This document shows, piece by piece, positions 11,193-46,758 of a DNA stretch of 64,000 nucleotides. Made by a program: the position numbers and the translations under genes. Source of the DNA: Escherichia phage vB_EcoM_WFH; the sequence record NC_048194.1. One strand, 5' to 3'. The notes under the pieces were generated by a model. It made no database searches. It was not told the origin of the DNA and was given only the letters and a program-made list of their open reading frames with translations. Position 1 is the stretch's first letter; every line of letters begins with the position of its first letter.

Positions 11193-12332
11193 ATGACTCG
11201 CATTAGCCAAACACACTCTCGCCTCCCAGCGAGCAAGGTGCGCCCTTTTGATATGCAATCCGTGACCGACGCGGCTGTTTCCCAGCTTGCGCGTATCGGT
11301 ATTGTGTTTGATTCCGCGATTGTGCGTGATCAGATTGAGCACTTAAACCGTGCAGGTGCTTTCCGCGTAGGTGACGCCGCATTTACTGCGCCGCAAACCA
11401 CGCCATCAATCCCGACCCCGCTGCAGTTCCTGCAACAGTGGCTGCCTGGCTTCGTCAAAATCATGACCGCTGCCCGTAAAATTGACGAGCTGGTTGGTAT
11501 TGACACCGTTGGTCAGTGGGAAGATGCAGAAATCGTTCAGGGCATCGTTGAACCAGCTGGCACCGCAGTTGAATATGGTGATTTCACCTCTATTCCTCTG
11601 GCAAGCTGGAACGTGAACTTTGAACGCCGTTCCATCGTTCGCGGTGAAATGGGCATGGCAGTCGGCATGCTGGAAGAAGGCCGCGCGTCTGCGATGCGTC
11701 TGAACTCTGCAGAGACCAAGCGCCAGCAGGCTGCTGTATCTCTGGAAATCATGCGTAACGCAATCGGCTTCTATGGTTGGTATAACGGGAACAACCGCAC
11801 GTTCGGCTTCCTGAATGATCCAAACCTGCCAGCGGCAATGACTTCAAACACCACTTCCGGCTGGGCTACTGCGACCTTCCAACAGGTGACTGCAGACATC
11901 CGTTTGATGGTTCGTCAAATCCGTGTCAACTCTCAGGACCAGATTGATCCAGAGAAGGTTGATATGACTCTGGCGCTGCCGACCAACTCTATTGATTGGC
12001 TGTCAAACACCACCGACTTCGGTATTTCTGTACGTGACTGGATCACCCAGACTTATCCGAAGATGAAGATCAAATCTGCACCGGAACTCAACGGCGCACT
12101 TGGCAGTGACCCGACTTTCCTGAACGTGGCATATCTGTACGCTGATCACATCGATTCCTCAATTGATGGCTCAAGCGATGATGGTTCCGTATTCAGTCAG
12201 CTGGTCCAGACTAAGTTTATGACTCTGGGCGTTGAGAAACGCGCTAAGAGCTACGTTGAAGACTACGCAAACGCAACAGCAGGCGTTCTGCTCAAGCGTC
12301 CTTTCGCAGTCGTCCGTATGACTGGTATCTAA
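11193..12332 (+). CDS. major capsid protein (putative)
   Basis: 379 aa, RBS aggtga, follows scaffold, followed by strong stem-loop; size and position typical of HK97-fold capsid proteins. Confidence 0.55.
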
Positions 12333-33806: not shown

Positions 33807-34667
33807 TTAAAACTCTTCTGCGTCGGTCGGAGTTTCATTGACAGGACCAGCGGCACCACTTGCTTCTTCCTGCTTGCTGCGGTCAATGTTAACGTTGCCG
33901 CCAACCACGTCGTTGTGGAATGCTTTGGCGACTTCGTACAGGCCTTTGTCCTGCACCAGACCTTCCAGCTCAAACTTCAGGACGGACCAGGTGTTGCCGT
34001 CTTTGGACTGAGACGCAGTACCCATGCGAACGATGTTCATGAAGGTCGGCGGCGTTTTCAGGCCCTGCGGAGTCTGAACTTTCTTCTGCTGCAGAGCGGT
34101 CATCAGCATGCGAGACGGCTTGATCATGGAAGAAGTCAGAGACAGCATTGCACTACCAAATTCACCAGTTTCTTCGTTCAACAGAATCACGAAGTGGTTA
34201 CGTGTATCTGCGTAGTAAGGTGATTTCTTCTCGTGCACCTTGCCGTTTTCGTCTGGCACAAACACCTTACCGTTGATCTCAACAGCGCGGCCTGCCGCGA
34301 CTTCTGCATCAACGTGCTCTTTGGTGAATTCACCTTTAAAGCCTTTATCGTCGGACTCGCGACCGCCCCAAAGGATGAAGGTGCGTTTGAATGCGCAAGG
34401 GATGATCTGCACGCCCTTCTTGCCGTCATACAATTCACCAGTAACGGTGTTGTACAGCATACCAGCTTTTGCGCCAGGAACGTGTTTTGGATCATCTTCG
34501 TCGACCATCGGAGACATCTTTTGCAGTACGACGATAAAAGGAATGGCATAAGCGTCGGCATCGGCACCTTCAAAACCAGCGCCAAAATCGGTCATATCGA
34601 CAAAATCAGCCATAGCGGACATCTGGGTGTTTTTTGCTGCAACTTCGGTAGTTTCTTTCTTAGACAT
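33807..34667 (-). CDS. single-stranded DNA-binding protein (T7 gp2.5-like)
   Basis: 286 aa; acidic C-terminal tail ending ...ETPTDAEEF (acidic tail with terminal Phe as in gp2.5-type SSBs); position in replication block. Confidence 0.45.
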   Translation of the reverse strand: MSKKETTEVAAKNTQMSAMADFVDMTDFGAGFEGADADAYAIPFIVVLQKMSPMVDEDDPKHVPGAKAGMLYNTVTGELYDGKKGVQIIPCAFKRTFILWGGRESDDKGFKGEFTKEHVDAEVAAGRAVEINGKVFVPDENGKVHEKKSPYYADTRNHFVILLNEETGEFGSAMLSLTSSMIKPSRMLMTALQQKKVQTPQGLKTPPTFMNIVRMGTASQSKDGNTWSVLKFELEGLVQDKGLYEVAKAFHNDVVGGNVNIDRSKQEEASGAAGPVNETPTDAEEF

Positions 34668-34726: not shown

Positions 34727-35284
34727 TTACTTTTTGCTTTTAGGCAAGGTTATTTTAGCTTCTTTATACTCAAAAACGCTAATATCTTCACTAACTGGAT
34801 TACCCGCTTCCAGCTGTTCTTTAACAAATGACTTCAGTGTAGCAGAATGAACGCCTTGTTTCAACGTGGCTTCAACACCGTCTTCACGCAGCGCGGCAAC
34901 AATCTCTTGCGCTTGCTCGATTTCTTCGCGACCGAACTCAGCCGTGACGCTGGACTTGATCAAGCCGCCGTAACCGTTGTTGACGAGCCAATCGAATACC
35001 TTCAATTCATTTTCTTTCTTGATTGAAGCATTTACTTTTGACTCGACCTTGATTTTGGTCTTGTCTTCAAGCTTGATTTCGGACACGCCAAGCTCATCCA
35101 TGACGCCAGGAAGCAGAACAGTTTTGATTTCACTGATGCGCTGCTTTTGCATATCAGCTTCATCTTCAAGCTCTGTCAAAGCTTCTTGGCGTTCTGCCAA
35201 TTCCGATACTAAGCGCGCAAGGCGCTCTTGAATGCTCTCAGGAGCGACCTGCGGCAAATCATCTTCCCAATTAATATTGCTCAT
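34727..35284 (-). CDS. hypothetical protein (185 aa, acidic, coiled-coil N-region)
   Basis: ATG overlapping upstream stop; no recognised motif. Confidence 0.4.
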   Translation of the reverse strand: MSNINWEDDLPQVAPESIQERLARLVSELAERQEALTELEDEADMQKQRISEIKTVLLPGVMDELGVSEIKLEDKTKIKVESKVNASIKKENELKVFDWLVNNGYGGLIKSSVTAEFGREEIEQAQEIVAALREDGVEATLKQGVHSATLKSFVKEQLEAGNPVSEDISVFEYKEAKITLPKSKK

Positions 35285-35618: not shown

Positions 35619-37142
35619 TTAATTCATCTTTTTGCCGTCGAGGATGTGATCAGCAAGCATTGACTTCATACTGAGTGAACGCTGAATTTCTTCGTCGATG
35701 GTATCAACACCAATAAAATCAACATACAACACGCTTGATTTGGTGCCGATGCGGTGATTTCGGTCTTCGGATTGTTTGCGCAGCTCGTTGTCGTAGTTGC
35801 AAGAATAATAAATTGCCAAGTCAGCGGCGGTAAGCGTGATGCCGATGCCTGCCGCTGCAGCGTGGCAAACCAATACCTGTGTTCCACCATTCGCGACTGT
35901 GTTCTTCTGGAAGTCATCAATTAAGAACTCGCGCTGCTCTTTGGACGTTTCACCGTTGTATACACCAGTGACCACGCCTTCAGACTCAAGCCAGTCCTTA
36001 ATCTGGTTCATCTCTTCCTTAAAGATGGCCCAAACGATGAATTTGCGCTCTGGGTCGTCTTCCAGCACCCCTTCCACATAATCCTTAAAGGCCGTGAATC
36101 GTGGGTTGTCTTCCATGTAGACCATCTCATCATACACCTTAACAAAACCGGATGTCACCTGCTTCATCTTAGTGCGCGACGCGATCATCTCAAACTTGAC
36201 GTTTTCTTCTTCGCCCTTGTATTCCATCAAATAGTTGTACTCATTCTTGAGTTCATCGTAAACATCGCGTTGTTTAGGCGACAACTCGAAGTCAATAAAC
36301 TTGTACACCTTCTCTGGAAGGTCAGGCAAGTATTCTGCTTTTGTTGCACGAAAATAGTGCGGTTCCATCAGCCGGATAAGCTTGTCAAGGTTCTTGTACA
36401 TCGGTCGGCCAAACTGGTCTTTGCGCGGCACTTGCGGAATCCCATAGCCATTGCCGCCGATTTTCTTGAGGATGGCTTGCATCTCTGGGTCGTGCGCTTC
36501 AAGCAGCACAGTGAATTCAGAGTTAAAGGCACGGAATGATTTGGTGCCGAGCAATCCTGCTTCAAGGAAGTGGTATTGCATGTAAATATCCGCAGGCGAG
36601 CGCGGCAACGGCGTGCCAGAAAGGATTCGACGGGCCTTTGCCAGCCGTCCCAATTCCACAACCTTGATGGAGCGTTTGGCTGTGTTATTCTTGATGCGCG
36701 TTGATTCGTCGATGATCATCAGGCAGCGGTACTTCTTCAAGACCGACTCGATGTGTTGATAACCGACTGGTGTGTTGACAGTATCGATGTTGAATGAGAA
36801 GATGCGCGCAGGCACTTCGCCTTCGGGGTAGTGATCAGCAAACATCTTCTCCCAAAGCGCCTTGCCCTTTTTAGTTTTCATCTTGTCGTTGCCGCGCCAG
36901 TAGTGCCCAATCCACTTGATGGAAAGGTGCTCTGGCGCTTCACGACGAATCCAGTTTGAGTGGACACCGTTTGGAGCGATGACTACCATGGCATCGAACG
37001 CGCCAGCGTTGAAGTGCTTTTCAAACTCTGCCAAAGCGGTCCAAGTTTTACCAAGACCCTGTTCCATGAAATAGGCAAAGTATTTTCTGCGGCCTGCTTT
37101 ATCAAGCGCCAGAAGCTGGTGGCGCATCCCTTGTGTTTTCAT
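35619..37142 (-). CDS. SNF2-family (SF2) DNA helicase
   Basis: 507 aa; N-terminal ATPase region with GLGKT-type P-loop context (FMEQGLGKTWTAL), DEAH-like box (IIDESTRIKN), SNF2 motif ILSGTPL, C-terminal helicase domain. Confidence 0.75.
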   Translation of the reverse strand: MKTQGMRHQLLALDKAGRRKYFAYFMEQGLGKTWTALAEFEKHFNAGAFDAMVVIAPNGVHSNWIRREAPEHLSIKWIGHYWRGNDKMKTKKGKALWEKMFADHYPEGEVPARIFSFNIDTVNTPVGYQHIESVLKKYRCLMIIDESTRIKNNTAKRSIKVVELGRLAKARRILSGTPLPRSPADIYMQYHFLEAGLLGTKSFRAFNSEFTVLLEAHDPEMQAILKKIGGNGYGIPQVPRKDQFGRPMYKNLDKLIRLMEPHYFRATKAEYLPDLPEKVYKFIDFELSPKQRDVYDELKNEYNYLMEYKGEEENVKFEMIASRTKMKQVTSGFVKVYDEMVYMEDNPRFTAFKDYVEGVLEDDPERKFIVWAIFKEEMNQIKDWLESEGVVTGVYNGETSKEQREFLIDDFQKNTVANGGTQVLVCHAAAAGIGITLTAADLAIYYSCNYDNELRKQSEDRNHRIGTKSSVLYVDFIGVDTIDEEIQRSLSMKSMLADHILDGKKMN

Positions 37143-41041: not shown

Positions 41042-41593
41042 TTATACAGTGTACGGAGTACCGTCTTGATTCAACCGCACGATGAACTTAAGGTCGACAC
41101 CAATGATTTCACGCGTATCAAAGATCACATAGTTGTAACGACGCTGACCAGCAATGTTTGGGTTGGTGTGAGAGTCGGTCACAACTTCCTGCGCAACCTG
41201 AATGCCTTCTTCTTTAAAGAACTTGCGCCATTCAGCAAGTTCAGCGGCAGTCACGTGCATACCAAGATGGCTAACCTGATTGTCGTGCGCATCGATGTAT
41301 TCGATGTTTTCGTGAATCCAGTTGCAACCTTTTGTATAGTCAAGAATTTCAAGCTCAAGAGGCTTACCAGCTCCGCCATCGGTGCCGTTGCCAGCCTGAT
41401 AGTTGAAGCGCAAGTCAGCTTCGTTGGTGCAATCGCCGCGCTGACCCTTAAAGACATCAGCTTCAAATACGCGACCAGTAGCAACAACGTGATCATGGAA
41501 CCATTCTGTCAGGCCGATTTTAGCCAGGAAATTCTGTGCGCGCTGAGCACCTGGAATTGACAGGGCGATTTGTTCAATTTTAAAATGTGGCAT
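41042..41593 (-). CDS. VOC (glyoxalase/bleomycin-resistance-like) family protein, putative
   Basis: 183 aa; two-module hydrophobic beta-alpha-beta pattern (KIEQIALSIP...FLAKIGL and VSHLGMHVT...EEGIQV) suggestive of VOC fold; weak. Confidence 0.3.
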   Translation of the reverse strand: MPHFKIEQIALSIPGAQRAQNFLAKIGLTEWFHDHVVATGRVFEADVFKGQRGDCTNEADLRFNYQAGNGTDGGAGKPLELEILDYTKGCNWIHENIEYIDAHDNQVSHLGMHVTAAELAEWRKFFKEEGIQVAQEVVTDSHTNPNIAGQRRYNYVIFDTREIIGVDLKFIVRLNQDGTPYTV

Positions 41594-41683: not shown

Positions 41684-42367
41684 TTATTTACCAAATGGAA
41701 TATCAGTACCAGACATAAAGCGCCATGCGCCCGTAATTAAGATATGGCGAATGAAGTCAGCAATTACTTGCGGCTCAGTCTCCAATCCATTCATCAGCGC
41801 CTTTTTCTGGTATTCAGCAGCATACTCAGGAGTCCAGCCGCGAGTCGCGCAAACAGCATCTTCAATCTGTTTGGACATGCCAGTACCACGTAGCTTGTTA
41901 GGACTAATAGAGAATACCGTGATCCCGTATTTAGGCGTAAGCTCGTGAGCCATCTGCTTGCTAATCATGAGCGCAGCAGCCTTGGAAGCATTATAACACA
42001 AGCTGGACGTCATAGGAATATGCGCAGCGTTGGAAACGATGTTGATCACAAAACCTTTGTTGTCAATAAGACTTTTCAGCGCGGCCTGAGTCGTGTTGAC
42101 GAAAGAGAAGGCGTTGGTGTGCATAACGCGATTGAACTCTTCGTAGTTAACATCTTCGAACCAGTTGTTGGAGTTGACGCCAGCGCAGTTGATCAAGCCT
42201 TCTACGTCGTATTGAGAGAGAAGCTCTTTCATCTGTTTCGCGTTACGGATGTCATAGCCGTTCTCCAAATCAATACCGACAACTTCATGACCGTAAGCGC
42301 CAAGGGTGTCAAAAATGGATTTACCAAGACCGGAATTGCAGCCAGTTACAACAATTACTTTTTTCAT
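41684..42367 (-). CDS. short-chain dehydrogenase/reductase (classical SDR)
   Basis: 227 aa; Rossmann motif VTGCNSGLG, NCAG, catalytic Y-x3-K (YNASKAA). Confidence 0.85.
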   Translation of the reverse strand: MKKVIVVTGCNSGLGKSIFDTLGAYGHEVVGIDLENGYDIRNAKQMKELLSQYDVEGLINCAGVNSNNWFEDVNYEEFNRVMHTNAFSFVNTTQAALKSLIDNKGFVINIVSNAAHIPMTSSLCYNASKAAALMISKQMAHELTPKYGITVFSISPNKLRGTGMSKQIEDAVCATRGWTPEYAAEYQKKALMNGLETEPQVIADFIRHILITGAWRFMSGTDIPFGK

Positions 42368-42432: not shown

Positions 42433-43305
42433 CTATTTATTGAAATTAATATTATGGGTGTTGACAAGACGTTCACACATGGCGCTGTAAACACCATCAT
42501 CGTGTATTGAGTCTTCGTGCTTCAGGCCGCTGATTGCGAAGCGTGTAAGCTTGACAATCTTAAGCTCGAACAGATGCCACATGTGGTAGTCTTCCGGCGT
42601 TTTCAACGTCACGCCATTAGGGAAAAGCACCTGCATAACCTGACCTACCATCACAGCGTTATCGCCATAGACAGCGTTGCGCTCACGGAAGGTTGCTGCC
42701 ATCGCATCAAGAATATCGGCGGCAGTTGCCGGAGATTGTTCAACTTCCACAGCCTTAGTCTCTTCTTGCCCTGTTGCACTTGGATCAATTGCTAATTGTT
42801 GCACCACTTCACCTGCCTTGCAAAGATTAAATGTAAAAGCGATTTTATTTTGAGCAACGGAATTATAATACAATGCTTCATCTTGCATCCGCGCGAGTAC
42901 GTCTTGTCGGTCGTCGAATACATTGATGATTCGATAATCGCCGTGCCGCAATGCGTGCGACAGCCATGCAGATTTCATAATAGTTGATGGACGTTTGTCG
43001 CCATAGTCTCTCATCTTGATTGTAAATTCATCAAAAGGGAAAACATTGTCCAGACGTTCAAAAGTCACTTGTCTGTATTTTTCTGGCCTTGCAGTCCAAT
43101 ATTCAACCGCCTCACCGCGAAGAGATGCCGACTCTACTGCTGATGCAATGTGAGGATAGAACTGATCATAACCAATACCGCTGTGATAATCATCATAGTC
43201 TGACAACGGACCTGCCACCTTGATGCGGTCTAAGCGCCAACGGTCATCAAACAGCGTTCCGTCAAGGTCGAATACGTTTAAGATTTCGCTGTTTTTAATG
43301 CTCAT
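42433..43305 (-). CDS. HAD-superfamily phosphatase fused to a C-terminal domain of unknown function
   Basis: 290 aa; HAD motif I FDLDGTLFDD at N-terminus; C-terminal ~120 aa unrelated. Confidence 0.55.
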   Translation of the reverse strand: MSIKNSEILNVFDLDGTLFDDRWRLDRIKVAGPLSDYDDYHSGIGYDQFYPHIASAVESASLRGEAVEYWTARPEKYRQVTFERLDNVFPFDEFTIKMRDYGDKRPSTIMKSAWLSHALRHGDYRIINVFDDRQDVLARMQDEALYYNSVAQNKIAFTFNLCKAGEVVQQLAIDPSATGQEETKAVEVEQSPATAADILDAMAATFRERNAVYGDNAVMVGQVMQVLFPNGVTLKTPEDYHMWHLFELKIVKLTRFAISGLKHEDSIHDDGVYSAMCERLVNTHNINFNK

Positions 43306-44105
43306 CCTTTTGATACTCCATCTTTAGCAACTGGATTGTTGGTGATTGGCATCGCACTCCAAAACTGGATGCGCAACTCTTCTTGCTGTGCCGTGGTATC
43401 CATCCAATCACGATACCAAGGGCAATGGGCTTTACCGTGACGAGGAAATGCGCACTTACCCATACCAATGCATTGCGGCTGCAGTAATGGATTCGCCCAA
43501 GGGTGCACCTTGAGGACTTCCGCAACCATTGCGCGGAATACTTCTTGATACTCTCCTTGCGTGCGCGTGCACAAGCGGTTTGACGCCATCTGCTGCAGCG
43601 TGCGCAAGTTGAACTTTGCCATGATATGCGTTTGCATATTAGAAGGCAACACGGCACGTGCATCTTGAATCTCTGCGCCAGCCGCGCGAAGCTCTTGATA
43701 CAAAGCGTCGATAGTCGCCATCGCATCATCCCACTTCTCTGCCAGTTCAGCTGCCTTCTCGTCATGGCGAGTCCATCCCTTTGGATCATCCTCTGGGTAA
43801 GTGAATTTAGCAGGACGAATCGCATCAAATGCAGACGACTCCTGAGCGCGGCTGGTGCGTTCTTGATATGCGCCTGTGCGTGTGCGTACCATCTGATGGG
43901 TCATGTTCTTTGATACAGCTGTGATATCAAAGATATAGTCCACAAAGTCAAAAGGCGACTTGATTGTATCAAGCATGTAGCGCCAATGCTCTTGCTTCTC
44001 TGATTCCGTCATCTCAGAGACAGGCTTACCAGTCATGCGCGTGTTCTTTGTTTCCAGCAAAAGGTCAAGTGCATCTTGGGTGTATCGAATTAATTCAACT
44101 TTCAT
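43302..44105 (-). CDS. ThyX-like (flavin-dependent thymidylate synthase family) protein with non-canonical motif
   Basis: 267 aa; segment QMVRTRTGAYQERTSR aligns to ThyX RHR-x7-S signature but with Thr in place of His; Cys/His cluster near C-terminus (CIGMGKCAFPRHGKAHCPWY). Confidence 0.5.
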   Translation of the reverse strand: MKVELIRYTQDALDLLLETKNTRMTGKPVSEMTESEKQEHWRYMLDTIKSPFDFVDYIFDITAVSKNMTHQMVRTRTGAYQERTSRAQESSAFDAIRPAKFTYPEDDPKGWTRHDEKAAELAEKWDDAMATIDALYQELRAAGAEIQDARAVLPSNMQTHIMAKFNLRTLQQMASNRLCTRTQGEYQEVFRAMVAEVLKVHPWANPLLQPQCIGMGKCAFPRHGKAHCPWYRDWMDTTAQQEELRIQFWSAMPITNNPVAKDGVSKG

Positions 44106-44118
44106 TTTAATTGTCCTA

Positions 44119-44565
44119 TTAACGGTAATTCACTAGTTGCTGATCACCAGAGAAGGTGCAATGATAAACGAATTGTGCGTTATAAAGCAACTGAAAACTT
44201 TTCTTTGGTTCATTATTAGAACTCATTGATGTAAAGATTTCTGCACCAGAACGGTTTTCACCAATCAGATTGATAAAGCCGCCAGTTGAACGAGGTTGAA
44301 CGAAAGTGAAACGTTGCATCCACGGAGTCCGGTTGACACCTTTTCCGGTGAATCCTTGAATCTGAATATTCAGACCTTCTTGCTCATTCACACCGATGTA
44401 AGTGGTAATCTTCGCACCAGTCGTTGCTGCGGTCTTACCGTCCATCGCTTCGCAATCGTAAACAGCGATTGAATCGGAAGTACGGATGGCGGCTTCAGTC
44501 GCTTCCATATACATGGTGCCGAGAATAGCAGTTGCGGCAAGCGCGATTCCAGTGATTCGTTTCAT
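44119..44565 (-). CDS. secreted protein with signal peptide (148 aa)
   Basis: MKRITGIALAATAILGTMYMEA... N-terminal signal-peptide-like sequence. Confidence 0.45.
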   Translation of the reverse strand: MKRITGIALAATAILGTMYMEATEAAIRTSDSIAVYDCEAMDGKTAATTGAKITTYIGVNEQEGLNIQIQGFTGKGVNRTPWMQRFTFVQPRSTGGFINLIGENRSGAEIFTSMSSNNEPKKSFQLLYNAQFVYHCTFSGDQQLVNYR

Positions 44566-44630: not shown

Positions 44631-45626
44631 TTATTTATTAGCAATATAAGCAAATTTTTGATAGTTATTTGCTTTGATGAGTTTTTCGACTTCAACAAGG
44701 TCATGAGCGACGTCATCAAGCAAGATATTGCGCCAGGTCGCGAATCGACCGACACTAAACACGTTTAAATCCATAGTCAGCTGCAGGAGTAGGGCGTGTC
44801 GCAAGTCTTTCGGAATGTCGACAATCTTGCCATATTTCTGGTCGACCTTTTCAACTTCTTCAAGAGCAATGTCACTCCATGAAAGGCCAAAGGCCGTCAA
44901 CACTTCGTCGACTTCTGCGCGCAGCTTCATGTCACGGTAACGAGTGATGCCGCCTGCGGCTTCAACTGCAGCTTCACTCACGCTGACCAAAGGAATTGTT
45001 TCAATGATAAGCGTGTCACCAGTAATTGATGCGCGGTAAGTTCTGACGGAGTAGTCAGGGAAGTAAATTGTCTGATACAAATCACACTTACGTTTAATCT
45101 TAAAGCGGTAAACGCGAATGTTTGCTTTATCAAATGAGAAATCAAGCTTTTGATCAATTCCAGCAAGCTTCATCATGACTGGCAGCGGCGACGTGTTGAT
45201 GATTGGCGTCTCGCTATAGCCGCAAAGAGTATCAACCGGAGTATTAAAGAATATGCGGTCACCCAGTTTGTCGACAAGCTGATCATAAAAGTCATCAGGC
45301 GCAATATAACGCGTTGCAGTCTTAAGCTTCATGATTGAACGGCTGCCAAATTGATTGGTGACCTTCATGGAATACATATTGGCAAGGTTGATTGGGCAAT
45401 GGTCGTGATAGTAGTTGCCGCGAAAATACACAGCCTTGTCAACTGTCACGGCCTTAAAAGGGATTCCGGTAATACGGCTTACTTCTTCGCCGCGAAAGCG
45501 TAGCAGCGCCTTGTGCTGTTGCGCTCGTTCCCCTGCTTCGTACACAATAGAGTTCGGGAAGTGACACGCGGTGATAAGTCCTGCCAATCCGCCGCCGATA
45601 ATCATTACAGGTTGTTTCATGTTCAT
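44631..45626 (-). CDS. FAD/NAD(P)-binding oxidoreductase
   Basis: 331 aa; N-terminal dinucleotide-binding fold MIIGGGLAGLITA; C-terminal GRFATWRN...DD reminiscent of flavoenzymes such as UDP-galactopyranose mutase or amine oxidases. Confidence 0.55.
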   Translation of the reverse strand: MNMKQPVMIIGGGLAGLITACHFPNSIVYEAGERAQQHKALLRFRGEEVSRITGIPFKAVTVDKAVYFRGNYYHDHCPINLANMYSMKVTNQFGSRSIMKLKTATRYIAPDDFYDQLVDKLGDRIFFNTPVDTLCGYSETPIINTSPLPVMMKLAGIDQKLDFSFDKANIRVYRFKIKRKCDLYQTIYFPDYSVRTYRASITGDTLIIETIPLVSVSEAAVEAAGGITRYRDMKLRAEVDEVLTAFGLSWSDIALEEVEKVDQKYGKIVDIPKDLRHALLLQLTMDLNVFSVGRFATWRNILLDDVAHDLVEVEKLIKANNYQKFAYIANK

Positions 45627-45711: not shown

Positions 45712-45732
45712 GACCCACAACAAGTGTGGGTC
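45712..45732 (-). terminator. intrinsic terminator (GACCCACA-n5-TGTGGGTC)
   Basis: On minus strand the 8-bp stem is followed by TTTTTTTCATC; directly downstream of the K/A/E-rich gene. Confidence 0.65.
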
Positions 45733-45759
45733 AATTACCGCTGCATAACCGTCCTAAGG

Positions 45760-46599
45760 TTATTCCGCTTGATCACCGTCTTCGGCATCTTCGTTGGGTT
45801 CAACATCGACAAACTCGATGTGGCCCATCTCTTCCAGCTTGCTCAGGTAGGAGCGAACGGAAGCGCCAAACAGTTGATCTTTAACTTTTTCGCCCAGCTC
45901 ATCGATAGACTGCGCCACGCCAACTTCGCCTTCTTTGATCGCCGCCAGAACGCGTCCACGGGTGGAATGCTCTTGCGGCTGGCTCAGGCCATTGCCAGTG
46001 TAGATGAAGTGAGTAGCTTTTGCACGACGTTGACCGTTTGCCTTTTTAGCGGCCTTACGTTCTGCGATGGCTTTGCGACGTTCTTCAGCTTCTTTCTTAC
46101 GCTGTTCTTTCTGTTGTTCTGCAGCTTCTTTCGCCGCAATCTTAGCAGCTTCACGCTCTGCCTTGCGTTTCGCTTTAGCTTCTTCTTTGGCCTTCTCTTT
46201 TTCGGCCTTCGCTGCAGCACGGGCTTGATCACGCTCTGCTTTCTTAGCAGCAGCTTGTTCAGCTTTCAGGCGCTTGGCTTCTTCTTTAGCCTTTGCCTTT
46301 TCGATTTCTTTTGCTGCTTTAGCGGCTTCACGCTCTGCTTTCTTAGCAGCAGCCTTTTCTGCACGCTCTTTAGCTTTCTTAGCTGCTTCTTCAGCACGCT
46401 TCTGAGCCTTCTCATCAGCAGCCTGCTTGCGTTTCAGGGCAGCTTCTTCACGCTTGGCTTGTTTTTCCTGCTCACGCTTCTGGCGTTTTTCTTCGGCTTC
46501 TTTCTTTTTAGCCAGACGTTTTTCTTCAGCCACGCGACGGCGTTCTGCTGCAGCTGCTTGCTTTTCTTCTTTAGATAATACTTTGATTGCTTCGGCCAT
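45760..46599 (-). CDS. K/A/E/R-rich coiled-coil protein with C-terminal globular domain
   Basis: ATG at 46599 (track start is GTG two codons earlier); ~200 aa of low-complexity charged helix (AEEKRQKREQEKQAKREEAALKRK...), then ~80-aa domain (..GRVLAAIKEGEVGVAQSIDELGEKVKDQLFGASVRSYLSKLEEMGHIEF..). Confidence 0.6.
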   Translation of the reverse strand: MAEAIKVLSKEEKQAAAAERRRVAEEKRLAKKKEAEEKRQKREQEKQAKREEAALKRKQAADEKAQKRAEEAAKKAKERAEKAAAKKAEREAAKAAKEIEKAKAKEEAKRLKAEQAAAKKAERDQARAAAKAEKEKAKEEAKAKRKAEREAAKIAAKEAAEQQKEQRKKEAEERRKAIAERKAAKKANGQRRAKATHFIYTGNGLSQPQEHSTRGRVLAAIKEGEVGVAQSIDELGEKVKDQLFGASVRSYLSKLEEMGHIEFVDVEPNEDAEDGDQAE

Positions 46600-46758
46600 A
46601 TTCACAGTCCTTAAATAAATTAGTTTATTTTATATTCCCCTTTTGGGATAACTTAATTATGCCTTCAGTCGCCGCCAGTAGCAACTAAAAACTCTGGCGG
46701 CAATGCCACTTTAATTAAACTGATTTTCAGTTTTATTTTTCGTAAATTTACGTCAACA

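What the first reader, a model, noticed from the sequence alone, without database searches (positions are those of the whole stretch)
45760..46599. Insulated gene for a 280-aa K/A/E/R-rich coiled-coil protein with a globular C-terminal domain
About 200 residues of uninterrupted charged helix-forming sequence (AEEKRQKREQEKQAKREEAALKRKQAADEKAQKRAEEAAKKAKERAEKAAAKK...), reminiscent of TolA domain II or histone H1-like tails but with no TM anchor, are followed by an 80-aa domain with a possible winged-helix-like pattern (SIDELGEKVKDQLFGASVRSYLSKLEEMGHIEF). The DNA carries at least three copies of a roughly 25-bp repeat (CACGCTCTGCTTTCTTAGCAGCAGC-like, near 46150, 46225, 46325), so repeat number could vary. 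The gene has its own terminator (45712-45732) and upstream hairpin, sitting as a single-gene unit between the helicase and the enzyme cassette. Possible roles: DNA-compacting or nucleoid-associated protein, injected protein, or molecular ruler.
Basis: seen in the sequence. Interest (0 to 1): 0.55.

Follow-up and report, generated by a model that had tools for sequence, protein, structure and literature searches.

The report
Abundant phage rod-plus-winged-helix protein
This is a real, strongly conserved and probably very highly expressed gene of a Wifcevirus coliphage (and of its Pseudomonas PB1-like relatives) that encodes a predicted ~26-nm charged single alpha-helical rod ending in a small winged-helix domain and an acidic tail; its function has never been tested, and a DNA-associated architectural role is my best guess.

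Summary
The minus-strand ORF 45760-46599 (279 aa) is a genuine gene. Orthologues occur in 27 Wifcevirus genomes and about 330 other phage records, always beside the Dda-like helicase. Within the genus dN/dS is about 0 in the low-complexity part. Peptides of the near-identical orthologue were detected by mass spectrometry in published work. It has the strongest host-like codon bias of 66 ORFs in the window, above the major head protein, plus a sigma-70-like promoter and a strong terminator.

The DNA repeats are weak imprints of a 33-residue protein periodicity, and copy number does not vary within the genus.

Function is untested. My best guess is an abundant nucleic-acid-associated architectural or adaptor protein of the replication module. 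Virion incorporation is unproven. It belongs to PHROG 4765, an uncharacterised family.

The parts
46656..46684 (-). sigma-70-like promoter candidate (TTGCTA-17 nt-CATAAT), about 57 nt upstream of the start codon
   Evidence: Consensus scan; sequence. The six aligned Wifcevirus differ at only one base across this stretch (a G/A difference in the spacer in Eco4M-7), but the whole region is 99% identical, so this conservation is uninformative. A comparable site precedes the Serratia orthologue. Not experimentally mapped.
46671..46701 (-). upstream hairpin GCCGCCAG-15 nt-CTGGCGGC, overlapping the -35 element
   Evidence: Sequence. Variants in relatives weaken the stem without compensation. A weaker terminator-like stem at 46709-46697 lies just upstream. 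Function doubtful.
46608..46612 (-). ribosome-binding site AAGGA, 8 nt before the ATG
   Evidence: Sequence. An RBS is annotated at the equivalent place in phage Mansfield.
45760..46599 (-). coding sequence, 279 aa plus stop (PHROG 4765)
   Evidence: purifying selection in this frame; peptides of the orthologue detected.
46042..46572 (-). residues 10-186: predicted single uninterrupted alpha helix (~26 nm) with an 11-residue charge periodicity (basic stripe at positions 0, 3, 7, 10; acidic at 2, 5, 8, 9)
   Evidence: AlphaFold2, (pLDDT mostly 85-98). Periodicity and hendecad table. No heptad hydrophobic seam.
45805..46041 (-). residues 187-265: conserved Arg-rich arm (GxRRxKATH) plus winged-helix domain (strand-H1-strand-H2-H3-strand)
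45763..45804 (-). residues 266-279: acidic, predicted disordered C-terminal tail (net -7)
   Evidence: pLDDT below 50. Acidic tails are present in most homologues.
45712..45732 (-). intrinsic terminator (8-bp stem, 5-nt loop, T7)
   Evidence: Annotated in WFC and Mansfield. Terminators at the same position in LMA2, phiKTN6, PB1 and Serratia KKP 3709.
46127..46362 (.). imperfect dispersed DNA repeats at about 99-nt spacing (46127-46161, 46229-46263, 46328-46362), encoding the recurring K-K-A-E-R-[ED]-x-A-[KR] motif
   Evidence: No significant tandem array. They reflect a 33-residue (3 x 11) protein periodicity.

Best explanation
What it is (shown or predicted). The gene is a core gene of the replication module of Wifcevirus, Pbunavirus and related myophages. 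It has its own promoter-like site and a strong terminator, and its codon usage points to very high expression.

Predicted architecture:
- A short N-terminal cap.
- A 177-residue single alpha helix about 26 nm long. It has no hydrophobic seam. Lys/Arg occupy positions 0, 3, 7 and 10 of an 11-residue repeat, forming one continuous basic stripe. Glu and Ala cover the opposite face.
- An invariant Arg-rich arm and a small winged-helix domain.
- An acidic, disordered tail.

How it works (inferred). It is an abundant nucleic-acid-associated architectural or adaptor protein, with linker-histone-like logic but reversed domain order. The winged helix and its Arg arm anchor it on phage DNA or on a DNA-bound partner. 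The rigid two-faced rod lies along or bridges DNA, or spaces partners apart. The acidic tail either folds back on the basic stripe or recruits replisome proteins. Because it is abundant and sticky, part of it is carried into purified virion preparations.
For: Real and constrained:
- 64 synonymous-only versus 8 non-synonymous variable codons among six orthologues.
- dN/dS is about 0 in the helix and 0.07-0.19 in the winged helix plus tail.
- Peptides were detected in vB_Eco4M-7 (7 peptides, score 1197.6, sixth of 33 proteins) and in ECML-117 (PMC7048862).

Abundance:
- Fraction of host-optimal codons is 0.733, rank 1 of 66 ORFs, above the major head protein at 0.709.
- It has an RBS, a promoter-like site and a strong terminator. 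The terminator position is conserved in three genera.

Context:
- It lies directly downstream of the Dda-like helicase in Wifcevirus, Pbunavirus, Myosmarvirus, Tabernariusvirus and an Aeromonas phage.
- It sits among Pol III alpha, RepB primase, a VapE-like helicase and an SNF2-like ATPase.

Structure:
- AlphaFold2 models.
- Invariant basic residues lie in the arm, at the N-terminus of H1 and in H3.
- A basic stripe of 43 positive versus 2 negative residues.
- The 11/3 charge periodicity is significant in most of the K/A/E-type homologues tested, from several genera.
Against: - No nucleic-acid binding has been tested for any family member.
- Outside Wifcevirus the helix is nearly charge-balanced, net +3 to +13 over 100-180 residues. 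A general polyanion-coating role for the helix is therefore not obvious.
- Distant relatives keep the winged helix but replace the helix with an unrelated N-terminal domain.
- AlphaFold confidence in a long isolated helix does not show that the protein is monomeric or rigid in solution.
Confidence: 0.4

Rival explanations
1. It is a true virion component: an internal head protein packaged with the DNA and injected with it, or another minor structural or ejection protein.
For: It was detected in CsCl-purified vB_Eco4M-7 with a score above portal, major capsid and sheath, and also in ECML-117. Pbunavirus orthologues are annotated 'putative structural protein' or 'structural protein' in LMA2, phiKTN6, KPP12, JG024 and others. 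I believe this traces to the virion proteomics of Ceyssens et al. 2009; that attribution is from my own knowledge, because the paper was not retrievable. A basic rod could neutralise packaged DNA.
Against: The same preparations contained clearly non-structural proteins: helicase, glyoxalase and a reductase. Those detected are the most codon-optimised non-structural genes in the window, which fits carry-over of abundant proteins. The score was very low in ECML-117 (3.2, 2 peptides). The gene sits in the replication module, not the structural module. The cryo-EM papers on E217 and Pa193 do not mention it in their main text, although a disordered internal protein would be invisible to averaging. 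I could not read the Pa193 LC-MS tables.
Confidence: 0.2
2. It is a replisome adaptor or hub that does not bind DNA itself. The winged helix and/or acidic tail bind the neighbouring Dda-like helicase or another replication protein, and the rod acts as a spacer or tether.
For: Adjacency to the Dda-like helicase is conserved across at least five genera. The domain is net acidic, and several structural neighbours are protein-binding winged helices such as RPA32C, Scc1 and ScpB. By established knowledge, acidic C-terminal tails are the partner-recruiting element of SSB, T7 gp2.5 and T4 gp32. No SSB is listed among the Pbunavirus replication proteins described in PMC12390725.
Against: The distant homologue on contig L013 lacks the helicase neighbour. 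It is instead translationally coupled to the downstream 317-aa GxGxxG protein. The tail lacks the terminal hydrophobic residue typical of SSB tails. A catalytic-level adaptor would not need the highest expression signal in the genome.
Confidence: 0.15
3. It is a sequence-specific transcription factor for phage middle or late promoters.
For: It has a winged-helix fold with a recognition-helix-like motif, SVRSYLSKLEEMGH. In the related phage 14-1, eleven promoters carry a non-sigma-70 motif and are inactive in reporter assays without phage infection, and the authors propose an unidentified phage factor (PMC10914365).
Against: Capsid-protein-level codon optimisation and a 177-residue rod are atypical of regulators. 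That paper points to gp12 as the candidate factor. I did not look for a candidate operator motif.
Confidence: 0.08
4. It is a TolA homologue or cell-envelope-spanning protein, as several GenBank records label it ('TolA protein', 'putative cell wall associated protein').
For: The composition resembles TolA domain II. The rod length of about 26 nm is of the order of the periplasmic width (the periplasm figure is from my own knowledge).
Against: It has no signal peptide or TM segment, no TolA Pfam domain and a winged-helix C-terminus. The label comes from low-complexity BLAST matches.
Confidence: 0.02

Closest known systems
PHROG 4765 / Pbunavirus PB1 gp69 (ORF66), LMA2 gp66, phiKTN6_066, vB_Eco4M-7_83, ECML-117 gp81
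   Same: These are orthologues. PHROG match E 2e-83. The C-terminal domain is 54% identical to PB1's. Architecture, helicase neighbour and downstream terminator are the same.
   Different: Nothing essential differs. The Wifcevirus helix is more basic (net +24 against +10 in PB1) and lacks the His-rich N-terminus seen in many metagenomic members. No member has a tested function.
Linker histone H1/H5
   Same: Both combine a small winged-helix globular domain with a long Lys/Ala-rich extension. The H1 tail is reported to form a helix with the basic residues on one face when bound to DNA (my own knowledge).
   Different: There is no sequence homology: no Linker_histone Pfam hit, and H1 globular domains appear only as insignificant Foldseek matches. 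Domain order is reversed. The extension is 21% acidic, lacks proline and is predicted to be a pre-formed rigid helix. It also has an acidic tail.
E. coli TolA domain II
   Same: Both are long K/A/E-rich helical rods of low complexity with roughly 11-residue repeats (the TolA repeat length is from my own knowledge).
   Different: There is no TM anchor, no TolA C-terminal domain and no signal peptide. It is a cytoplasmic phage protein.
ER/K single alpha-helix (SAH) domains and designed (EAAAK)n helical linkers
   Same: It has high charge density, an excess of opposite-charge i/i+3 and i/i+4 pairs (z = 2.7 against shuffles), no hydrophobic seam, and is predicted as one uninterrupted helix.
   Different: It is 31% alanine. 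The dominant charge period is 11/3 residues, which segregates the charges onto two faces, rather than the roughly 7-residue block pattern typical of SAHs. Monomeric state is untested.
Bacterial/archaeal winged-helix DNA-binding domains (BlaI/MecI, Fur/PerR, ArsR, Lrp-type HTH)

Membership tests
PHROG 4765 (uncharacterised phage protein family) | Significant full-length match to the family HMM | tested here: met
   E 2.1e-83 over residues 1-279; the C-terminal 96 aa alone gives E 2.1e-46.
TolA | N-terminal transmembrane anchor (domain I) | tested here: not met
   The N-terminus is MAEAIKVLSKEEK, and there are only 8 bulky hydrophobic residues in the first 195.
TolA | C-terminal TolA domain III (Pfam TolA_C) | tested here: not met
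   No Pfam family at E<=0.1. The C-terminus folds as a winged helix.
TolA | Long K/A/E-rich helical domain II | tested here: met
   Composition and predicted 177-residue helix. This is a compositional resemblance only.
Linker histone H1/H5 | Linker_histone (GH1/GH5) domain detectable by sequence | tested here: not met
   No Pfam hit even at E<=10 for nine family members. H1 globular domains appear only at Foldseek E>=6.
Linker histone H1/H5 | Winged-helix fold plus a long basic tail | tested here: inconclusive
   The winged-helix fold is met. The tail is N-terminal, 21% acidic and net +24 here, but only +3 to +13 in other genera.
Canonical (heptad) coiled coil | Hydrophobic residues at a/d positions of a heptad register | tested here: not met
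   The best register has 3 hydrophobic residues among about 51 a/d positions. There is no apolar periodicity at 100 or 102.9 degrees (p>0.5 against shuffles).
Single alpha-helix (ER/K-type) domain | Dense charge with stabilising i/i+3 and i/i+4 opposite-charge pairs, and one continuous helix | tested here: met
   Opposite-minus-like pair score is 23 against a shuffle mean of -5.9 (z 2.7). One helix over residues 10-186, pLDDT mostly above 85.
Single alpha-helix (ER/K-type) domain | Monomeric, stable helix in solution | not testable with these tools
   Needs circular dichroism with thermal melts, SEC-MALS or AUC.
Winged-helix DNA-binding regulators (MarR/ArsR/Fur/BlaI etc.) | Match to a family HMM | tested here: not met
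   None in Pfam. No PDB sequence relative by profile search.
Winged-helix DNA-binding regulators (MarR/ArsR/Fur/BlaI etc.) | H1-S1-H2-H3-wing fold | tested here: met
Winged-helix DNA-binding regulators (MarR/ArsR/Fur/BlaI etc.) | Binds DNA | not testable with these tools
   Needs EMSA, footprinting or ChIP.
NA37 / YejK nucleoid-associated protein | Detectable homology to YejK | tested here: not met
   Weak sub-threshold Pfam hits in 4 of 9 members (best E 0.0075, 16 bits against a cut-off of 24.6). hhalign against E. coli YejK gives 7.8% probability.
Single-stranded DNA-binding proteins (SSB / gp32 / gp2.5) | OB-fold DNA-binding core | tested here: not met
   The only globular domain is a winged helix.
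Single-stranded DNA-binding proteins (SSB / gp32 / gp2.5) | Acidic C-terminal tail | tested here: met
   Residues 266-279 have net charge -7 and are predicted disordered. Acidic tails are seen in most homologues.

The most novel reading that the evidence does not exclude
The family is a phage 'chromatin' or DNA-organising protein of a new type. Two-faced charged 12-30-nm rods are anchored by a winged helix. They coat or cross-bridge replicating phage DNA through the basic stripe and associate side by side through stripe complementarity. This organises the DNA for very fast replication and packaging. The rods could then be stripped off by the phage's own SNF2-like translocase (35619-37142), with a fraction co-packaged and injected.
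Probability: 0.1. Interest if true: 0.75.

Novelty: new variant of a known kind. Interest (0 to 1): 0.42.

Why it matters
Pbunavirus phages are among the Pseudomonas phages most used for personalised therapy (PMC11990801), and Wifcevirus phages are reported to replicate exceptionally fast (same paper). This gene is a core gene of that lineage. It carries the strongest expression signature in the window, yet it is annotated as hypothetical, 'TolA' or 'structural protein', with no experimental work.

If it organises phage DNA, it would add a new architecture to the short list of phage-encoded DNA-structuring proteins. It would also explain why it recurs in virion proteomes.

The helix is of separate interest to protein science. 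It is a natural 177-residue seamless helix whose every residue is under purifying selection within the genus, and whose 11-residue charge striping is conserved between genera while sequence and length are not.

At minimum, the 'TolA' and 'coiled-coil' annotations in public records should be corrected.

Tried and rejected
1. TolA homology. No Pfam domain, no TM segment. Rejected.

2. YejK/NA37 relationship. It was suggested by weak Pfam hits, but hhalign gave 7.8% probability. Rejected.

3. Canonical coiled coil. No heptad seam. Rejected.

4. Variable-number repeat or contingency locus. Length is invariant in 27 genomes and TRF is essentially negative. Rejected within the genus.

5. Antisense 284-aa ORF as the real gene. 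The substitution pattern is incompatible with it. Rejected.

6. Word-indexed homologue searches. The full-length query was swamped by low-complexity words (8 hits). The C-terminal query found only 1 hit. The exhaustive HMM search was needed, and it found 42 clusters.

7. Foldseek against the PDB gave nothing significant. Foldseek against BFVD returned only the protein's own family. The profile search of PDB sequences found nothing.

8. Literature.
- Ceyssens et al. 2009, the presumed source of the 'structural protein' label, is not held.
- The Pa193 and 14-1 supplementary tables are not held.
- The Gabija preprint's 'gp66' belongs to phage D3, and its PB1-family factor is a Mu Gam homologue, not this gene.
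- Pantoea PA1-LRP is an unrelated lysis protein.

9. Distant relatives. The alternative N-terminal domain matches only PHROG 4730, of unknown function, and no Pfam family.

10. Upstream hairpin as a regulatory structure. No compensatory changes, and it overlaps the -35 element. Left as doubtful.
Full report
**Where the window comes from.** The 1.2 kb around the finding is 99.8% identical to Shigella phage CWP003 and Wifcevirus WFH. It is 95.6-98.6% identical to 25 other Wifcevirus records: WFC, FEC19, ECML-117, Mansfield, vB_Eco4M-7 and BASEL phages Bas98-101. These are ~68-kb E. coli/Shigella myophages distantly related to Pseudomonas PB1-like phages (Pbunavirus) (PMC11990801).

**The gene is real.**
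- The minus-strand ORF ends at 45760. The ORF listing starts it at a GTG at 46605.
- The ATG at 46599 has an AAGGA 8 nt upstream and is the start used in all annotated relatives. That gives 279 aa.
- The six Wifcevirus orthologues I extracted are all exactly 840 nt. Of 76 variable nucleotides, 7, 1 and 68 fall on codon positions 1, 2 and 3. Variable codons are synonymous-only in 64 cases and non-synonymous in 8.
- Nei-Gojobori estimates give dN/dS of about 0 for residues 1-195 (0-1 non-synonymous against 13-22 synonymous differences). For residues 196-279 the values are 0.07-0.19.
- A 284-aa ORF exists on the opposite strand at 45724-46578. The same variable sites fall on its first codon position (68 of 76), so it is a low-complexity shadow.
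Necel et al. 2020 (PMC7048862) detected the orthologue vB_Eco4M-7_83, which differs at two residues, by LC-MS/MS with 7 peptides and 25.8% coverage. They also detected ECML-117 gp81.

**Transcription unit and expression level.**
- A strong intrinsic terminator (8-bp stem, T7) sits at 45732-45712. It is annotated in WFC and Mansfield.
- Terminators occupy the same position after the orthologues of LMA2, phiKTN6, PB1 and Serratia phage KKP 3709.
- Upstream, the 160-nt gap after the helicase gene holds a sigma-70-like site, TTGCTA-17-CATAAT, at 46684-46656.
It overlaps the -35 hexamer, and relatives carry uncompensated stem changes. I do not regard it as a demonstrated element.
- Codon usage is the most host-like in the window. 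All 25 Arg codons are CGT or CGC, against 67% elsewhere. Nine of ten Leu codons are CTG, against 21% elsewhere.
- The fraction of E. coli-optimal codons is 0.733, rank 1 of 66 ORFs. The major head protein (11193-12332, identified) scores 0.709. This is indirect but consistent evidence for very high expression.

**The long helix.**
- Residues 16-195 are A 31%, K+R 37% and D+E 21%, with net charge +28. The first 195 residues contain only eight bulky hydrophobic residues.
- AlphaFold2 on an eight-sequence alignment predicts a single uninterrupted helix from residue 10 to 186, with pLDDT mostly 85-98. At 0.15 nm per residue that is about 26 nm.
- It is not a canonical coiled coil. In no heptad register are more than 3 of about 51 a/d positions hydrophobic, and apolar residues show no periodicity at 100 or 102.9 degrees.
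- Opposite-charge pairs at i/i+3 and i/i+4 are enriched (z = 2.7 against shuffles), as in single alpha-helix domains.
- The dominant signal is a charge periodicity of 3.69 residues, equal to 11/3.
- Written in rows of 11, positions 0, 3, 7 and 10 hold 43 basic and 2 acidic residues. Positions 2, 5, 8 and 9 hold 28 acidic residues. Alanine fills the rest. The helix therefore carries one continuous basic stripe and an opposite acidic/alanine face.
- The same periodicity is significant (p<=0.02 against the shuffled maximum, most at p<=0.003) in most K/A/E-type homologues. These include PB1, Serratia, P. syringae and Aeromonas phages and many metagenomic sequences. Their helices differ in sequence and range from roughly 80 to 200 residues.
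- The pattern, not the sequence or length, is the family-level constraint. Within Wifcevirus, however, every residue is conserved.
- The helix net charge is +24 here (residues 1-185 as delimited) but only +3 to +13 in other genera.

**The DNA repeats.** The repeat finder reports families spaced 96-102 nt apart. The best pair, 46229-46263 and 46328-46362, is 91% identical over 35 nt, and the others are 63-90%. Tandem Repeats Finder reports nothing beyond a 30-nt two-copy match. These repeats are the nucleotide imprint of a 33-residue (3 x 11) protein periodicity around the motif KKAER[ED]xA[KR]. With invariant gene length in 27 genomes, there is no sign of copy-number variation.

**The C-terminal domain.**
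- AlphaFold2 on a nine-sequence alignment gives mean pLDDT 76, with the core at 81-91. The topology is strand-H1-strand-H2-H3-strand.
- Foldseek finds nothing significant in the PDB. In BFVD it finds only the protein's own family.
- Invariant residues include two arginines in a basic arm preceding the first strand (GxRRxKATH), an S-x-P-Q loop, S-x-R-G at the start of H1, and R-S-x-L-S-K-L-E-E-x-G-H in H3.
- The core domain is net -4 with an acidic wing. It is followed by a disordered tail of net -7.
- The fold is established. Whether it binds DNA or a protein partner is not.

**Family and context.**
- Pfam gives nothing. PHROG 4765, of unknown function, matches at E 2e-83.
- tblastn with the C-terminal 98 aa finds 355 phage records. 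Of these, 293 are Pseudomonas phages, mostly Pbunavirus at about 54% identity. The rest include Serratia, Burkholderia, Xanthomonas, Pantoea and Aeromonas phages.
- An exhaustive HMM search of 1.84 billion representative proteins finds only 42 clusters, always with the domain at the C-terminus.
- The gene lies directly downstream of the Dda-like helicase in Wifcevirus, Pbunavirus, Myosmarvirus, Tabernariusvirus and Aeromonas phage Gekk3-15.
- In Wifcevirus, Pbunavirus and Gekk3-15 it is followed by a protein of about 330 aa, which carries a GxGxxG motif in this window.
- Distant members replace the helix with an unrelated N-terminal domain (PHROG 4730).
- In one such contig the gene overlaps by 4 nt the homologue (41% identity) of that downstream protein. 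RepB primase, ThyX and PNKP-like genes lie nearby, but no adjacent helicase.
- In the window the neighbourhood is a replication and nucleotide-metabolism module: an SNF2-like ATPase, Pol III alpha, RepB primase and a VapE-like helicase.

**Virion association.**
- In CsCl-purified vB_Eco4M-7 the protein scored 1197.6, sixth of 33 proteins and above portal, capsid and sheath. In ECML-117 it scored only 3.2.
- The same samples contained helicase, glyoxalase and a reductase. The non-structural proteins detected correspond to the most codon-optimised non-structural ORFs in the window: 33807-34667, 41042-41593 and 41684-42367.
- Several Pbunavirus records call the orthologue a '(putative) structural protein'. 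I could not read the source proteomics.
- I therefore treat virion incorporation as possible but unproven. Carry-over of an abundant, sticky protein explains the data equally well.

**Interpretation.**
- Shown or strongly supported: a real, core, highly constrained and probably very abundant protein, built of a seamless charge-striped helix, a winged helix with an Arg arm, and an acidic tail.
- Inferred: it associates with nucleic acid or a DNA-bound partner in the replication/packaging phase and acts architecturally, as a coating, bridging or spacing element (confidence about 0.4).
- Rivals: a genuine packaged or injected protein (0.2), a protein-protein replisome adaptor (0.15), a transcription factor (0.08) and a TolA-like envelope protein (0.02).
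- Membership of TolA, linker histone, NA37/YejK, SSB and heptad coiled-coil families was tested and not met.

**Novelty and score.** The gene is annotated in hundreds of genomes, but I found no experimental study of it in the literature searched. The fold of the globular domain is a known kind. Its combination with a two-faced hendecad single helix and an acidic tail has no described counterpart that I could find, so I rate it a new variant of a known kind. Interest is moderate (0.42). The gene is well conserved, abundant and sits in therapeutically used phages. Nothing in the evidence demands a surprising mechanism, and the more exciting readings remain speculative.

Noticed in passing
window 45724-46578 (+): There is a 284-aa F/L/S/C-rich ORF antisense to the gene. 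It is a shadow of the GCN/GAA/AAG-rich coding strand. Gene callers could mis-annotate it.
   Followed up: yes
window 44631-45626 (-); L013:6732-7685: The downstream 331-aa protein has an N-terminal GGGLAGL dinucleotide-binding motif. It has no Pfam hit and no PDB sequence relative, and belongs to PHROG 4828. The Mansfield annotators call it UDP-galactopyranose-mutase-like on the basis of HHpred. It follows the rod/winged-helix gene in Wifcevirus and PB1. In a distant metagenomic contig the homologue (41% identity) overlaps the rod/winged-helix gene by 4 nt, which hints at a functional link.
   Followed up: partly
window 33807-34667 (-), 34727-35284 (-), 41042-41593 (-), 41684-42367 (-): These non-structural genes have high host-like codon bias: a Pam3 gp34-like protein, DUF7307, a glyoxalase-family protein and a short-chain dehydrogenase. 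By molecular mass or annotated name they appear to be the non-structural proteins reported in CsCl-purified virion proteomes of vB_Eco4M-7 and ECML-117. They are either abundant contaminants or an unexpected packaged set.
   Followed up: partly
window 35619-37142 (-): An SNF2-related ATPase (SNF2-rel_dom plus Helicase_C) lies in the replication module. The Pbunavirus counterpart is described in PMC12390725 as resembling Ino80/CHD1L nucleosome-sliding translocases. That is intriguing next to a possible DNA-coating protein.
   Followed up: no
homologues P0004, P0005, P0007, P0008, P0010, P0019, P0024, P0025; L011:1691-2833: Many family members begin with a His-rich segment, such as MSHGHHHHTQDAGHTHG or HDHQHNHQHNHE. 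The Wifcevirus and PB1 proteins lack it. It could be a metal-binding or pH-sensing N-terminal end of the rod.
   Followed up: no
P0039-P0047; L013:6001-6735: Distant relatives keep the arm and winged helix. In place of the K/A/E helix they have a conserved ~60-aa N-terminal domain (..LVETYNALTGKSIKKFENRSIAEARV..), which matches PHROG 4730 and no Pfam family. This is a domain swap at the same genomic position.
   Followed up: partly
window 44119-44565 (-): This 148-aa ORF has a signal-peptide-like N-terminus (MKRITGIALAATAILGTMY...) and no Pfam or PHROG match. It sits between the GxGxxG protein and the gene at 43302-44105, the syntenic equivalent of Mansfield's ThyX. It may be a secreted or periplasmic phage protein.
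   Followed up: no
window 46042-46572 (-) compared with homologues: The Wifcevirus helix is much more basic (net +24) than those of all other genera examined (+3 to +13), although the stripe pattern is the same. Whether this relates to the very short latent period reported for Wifcevirus is unknown.
   Followed up: no
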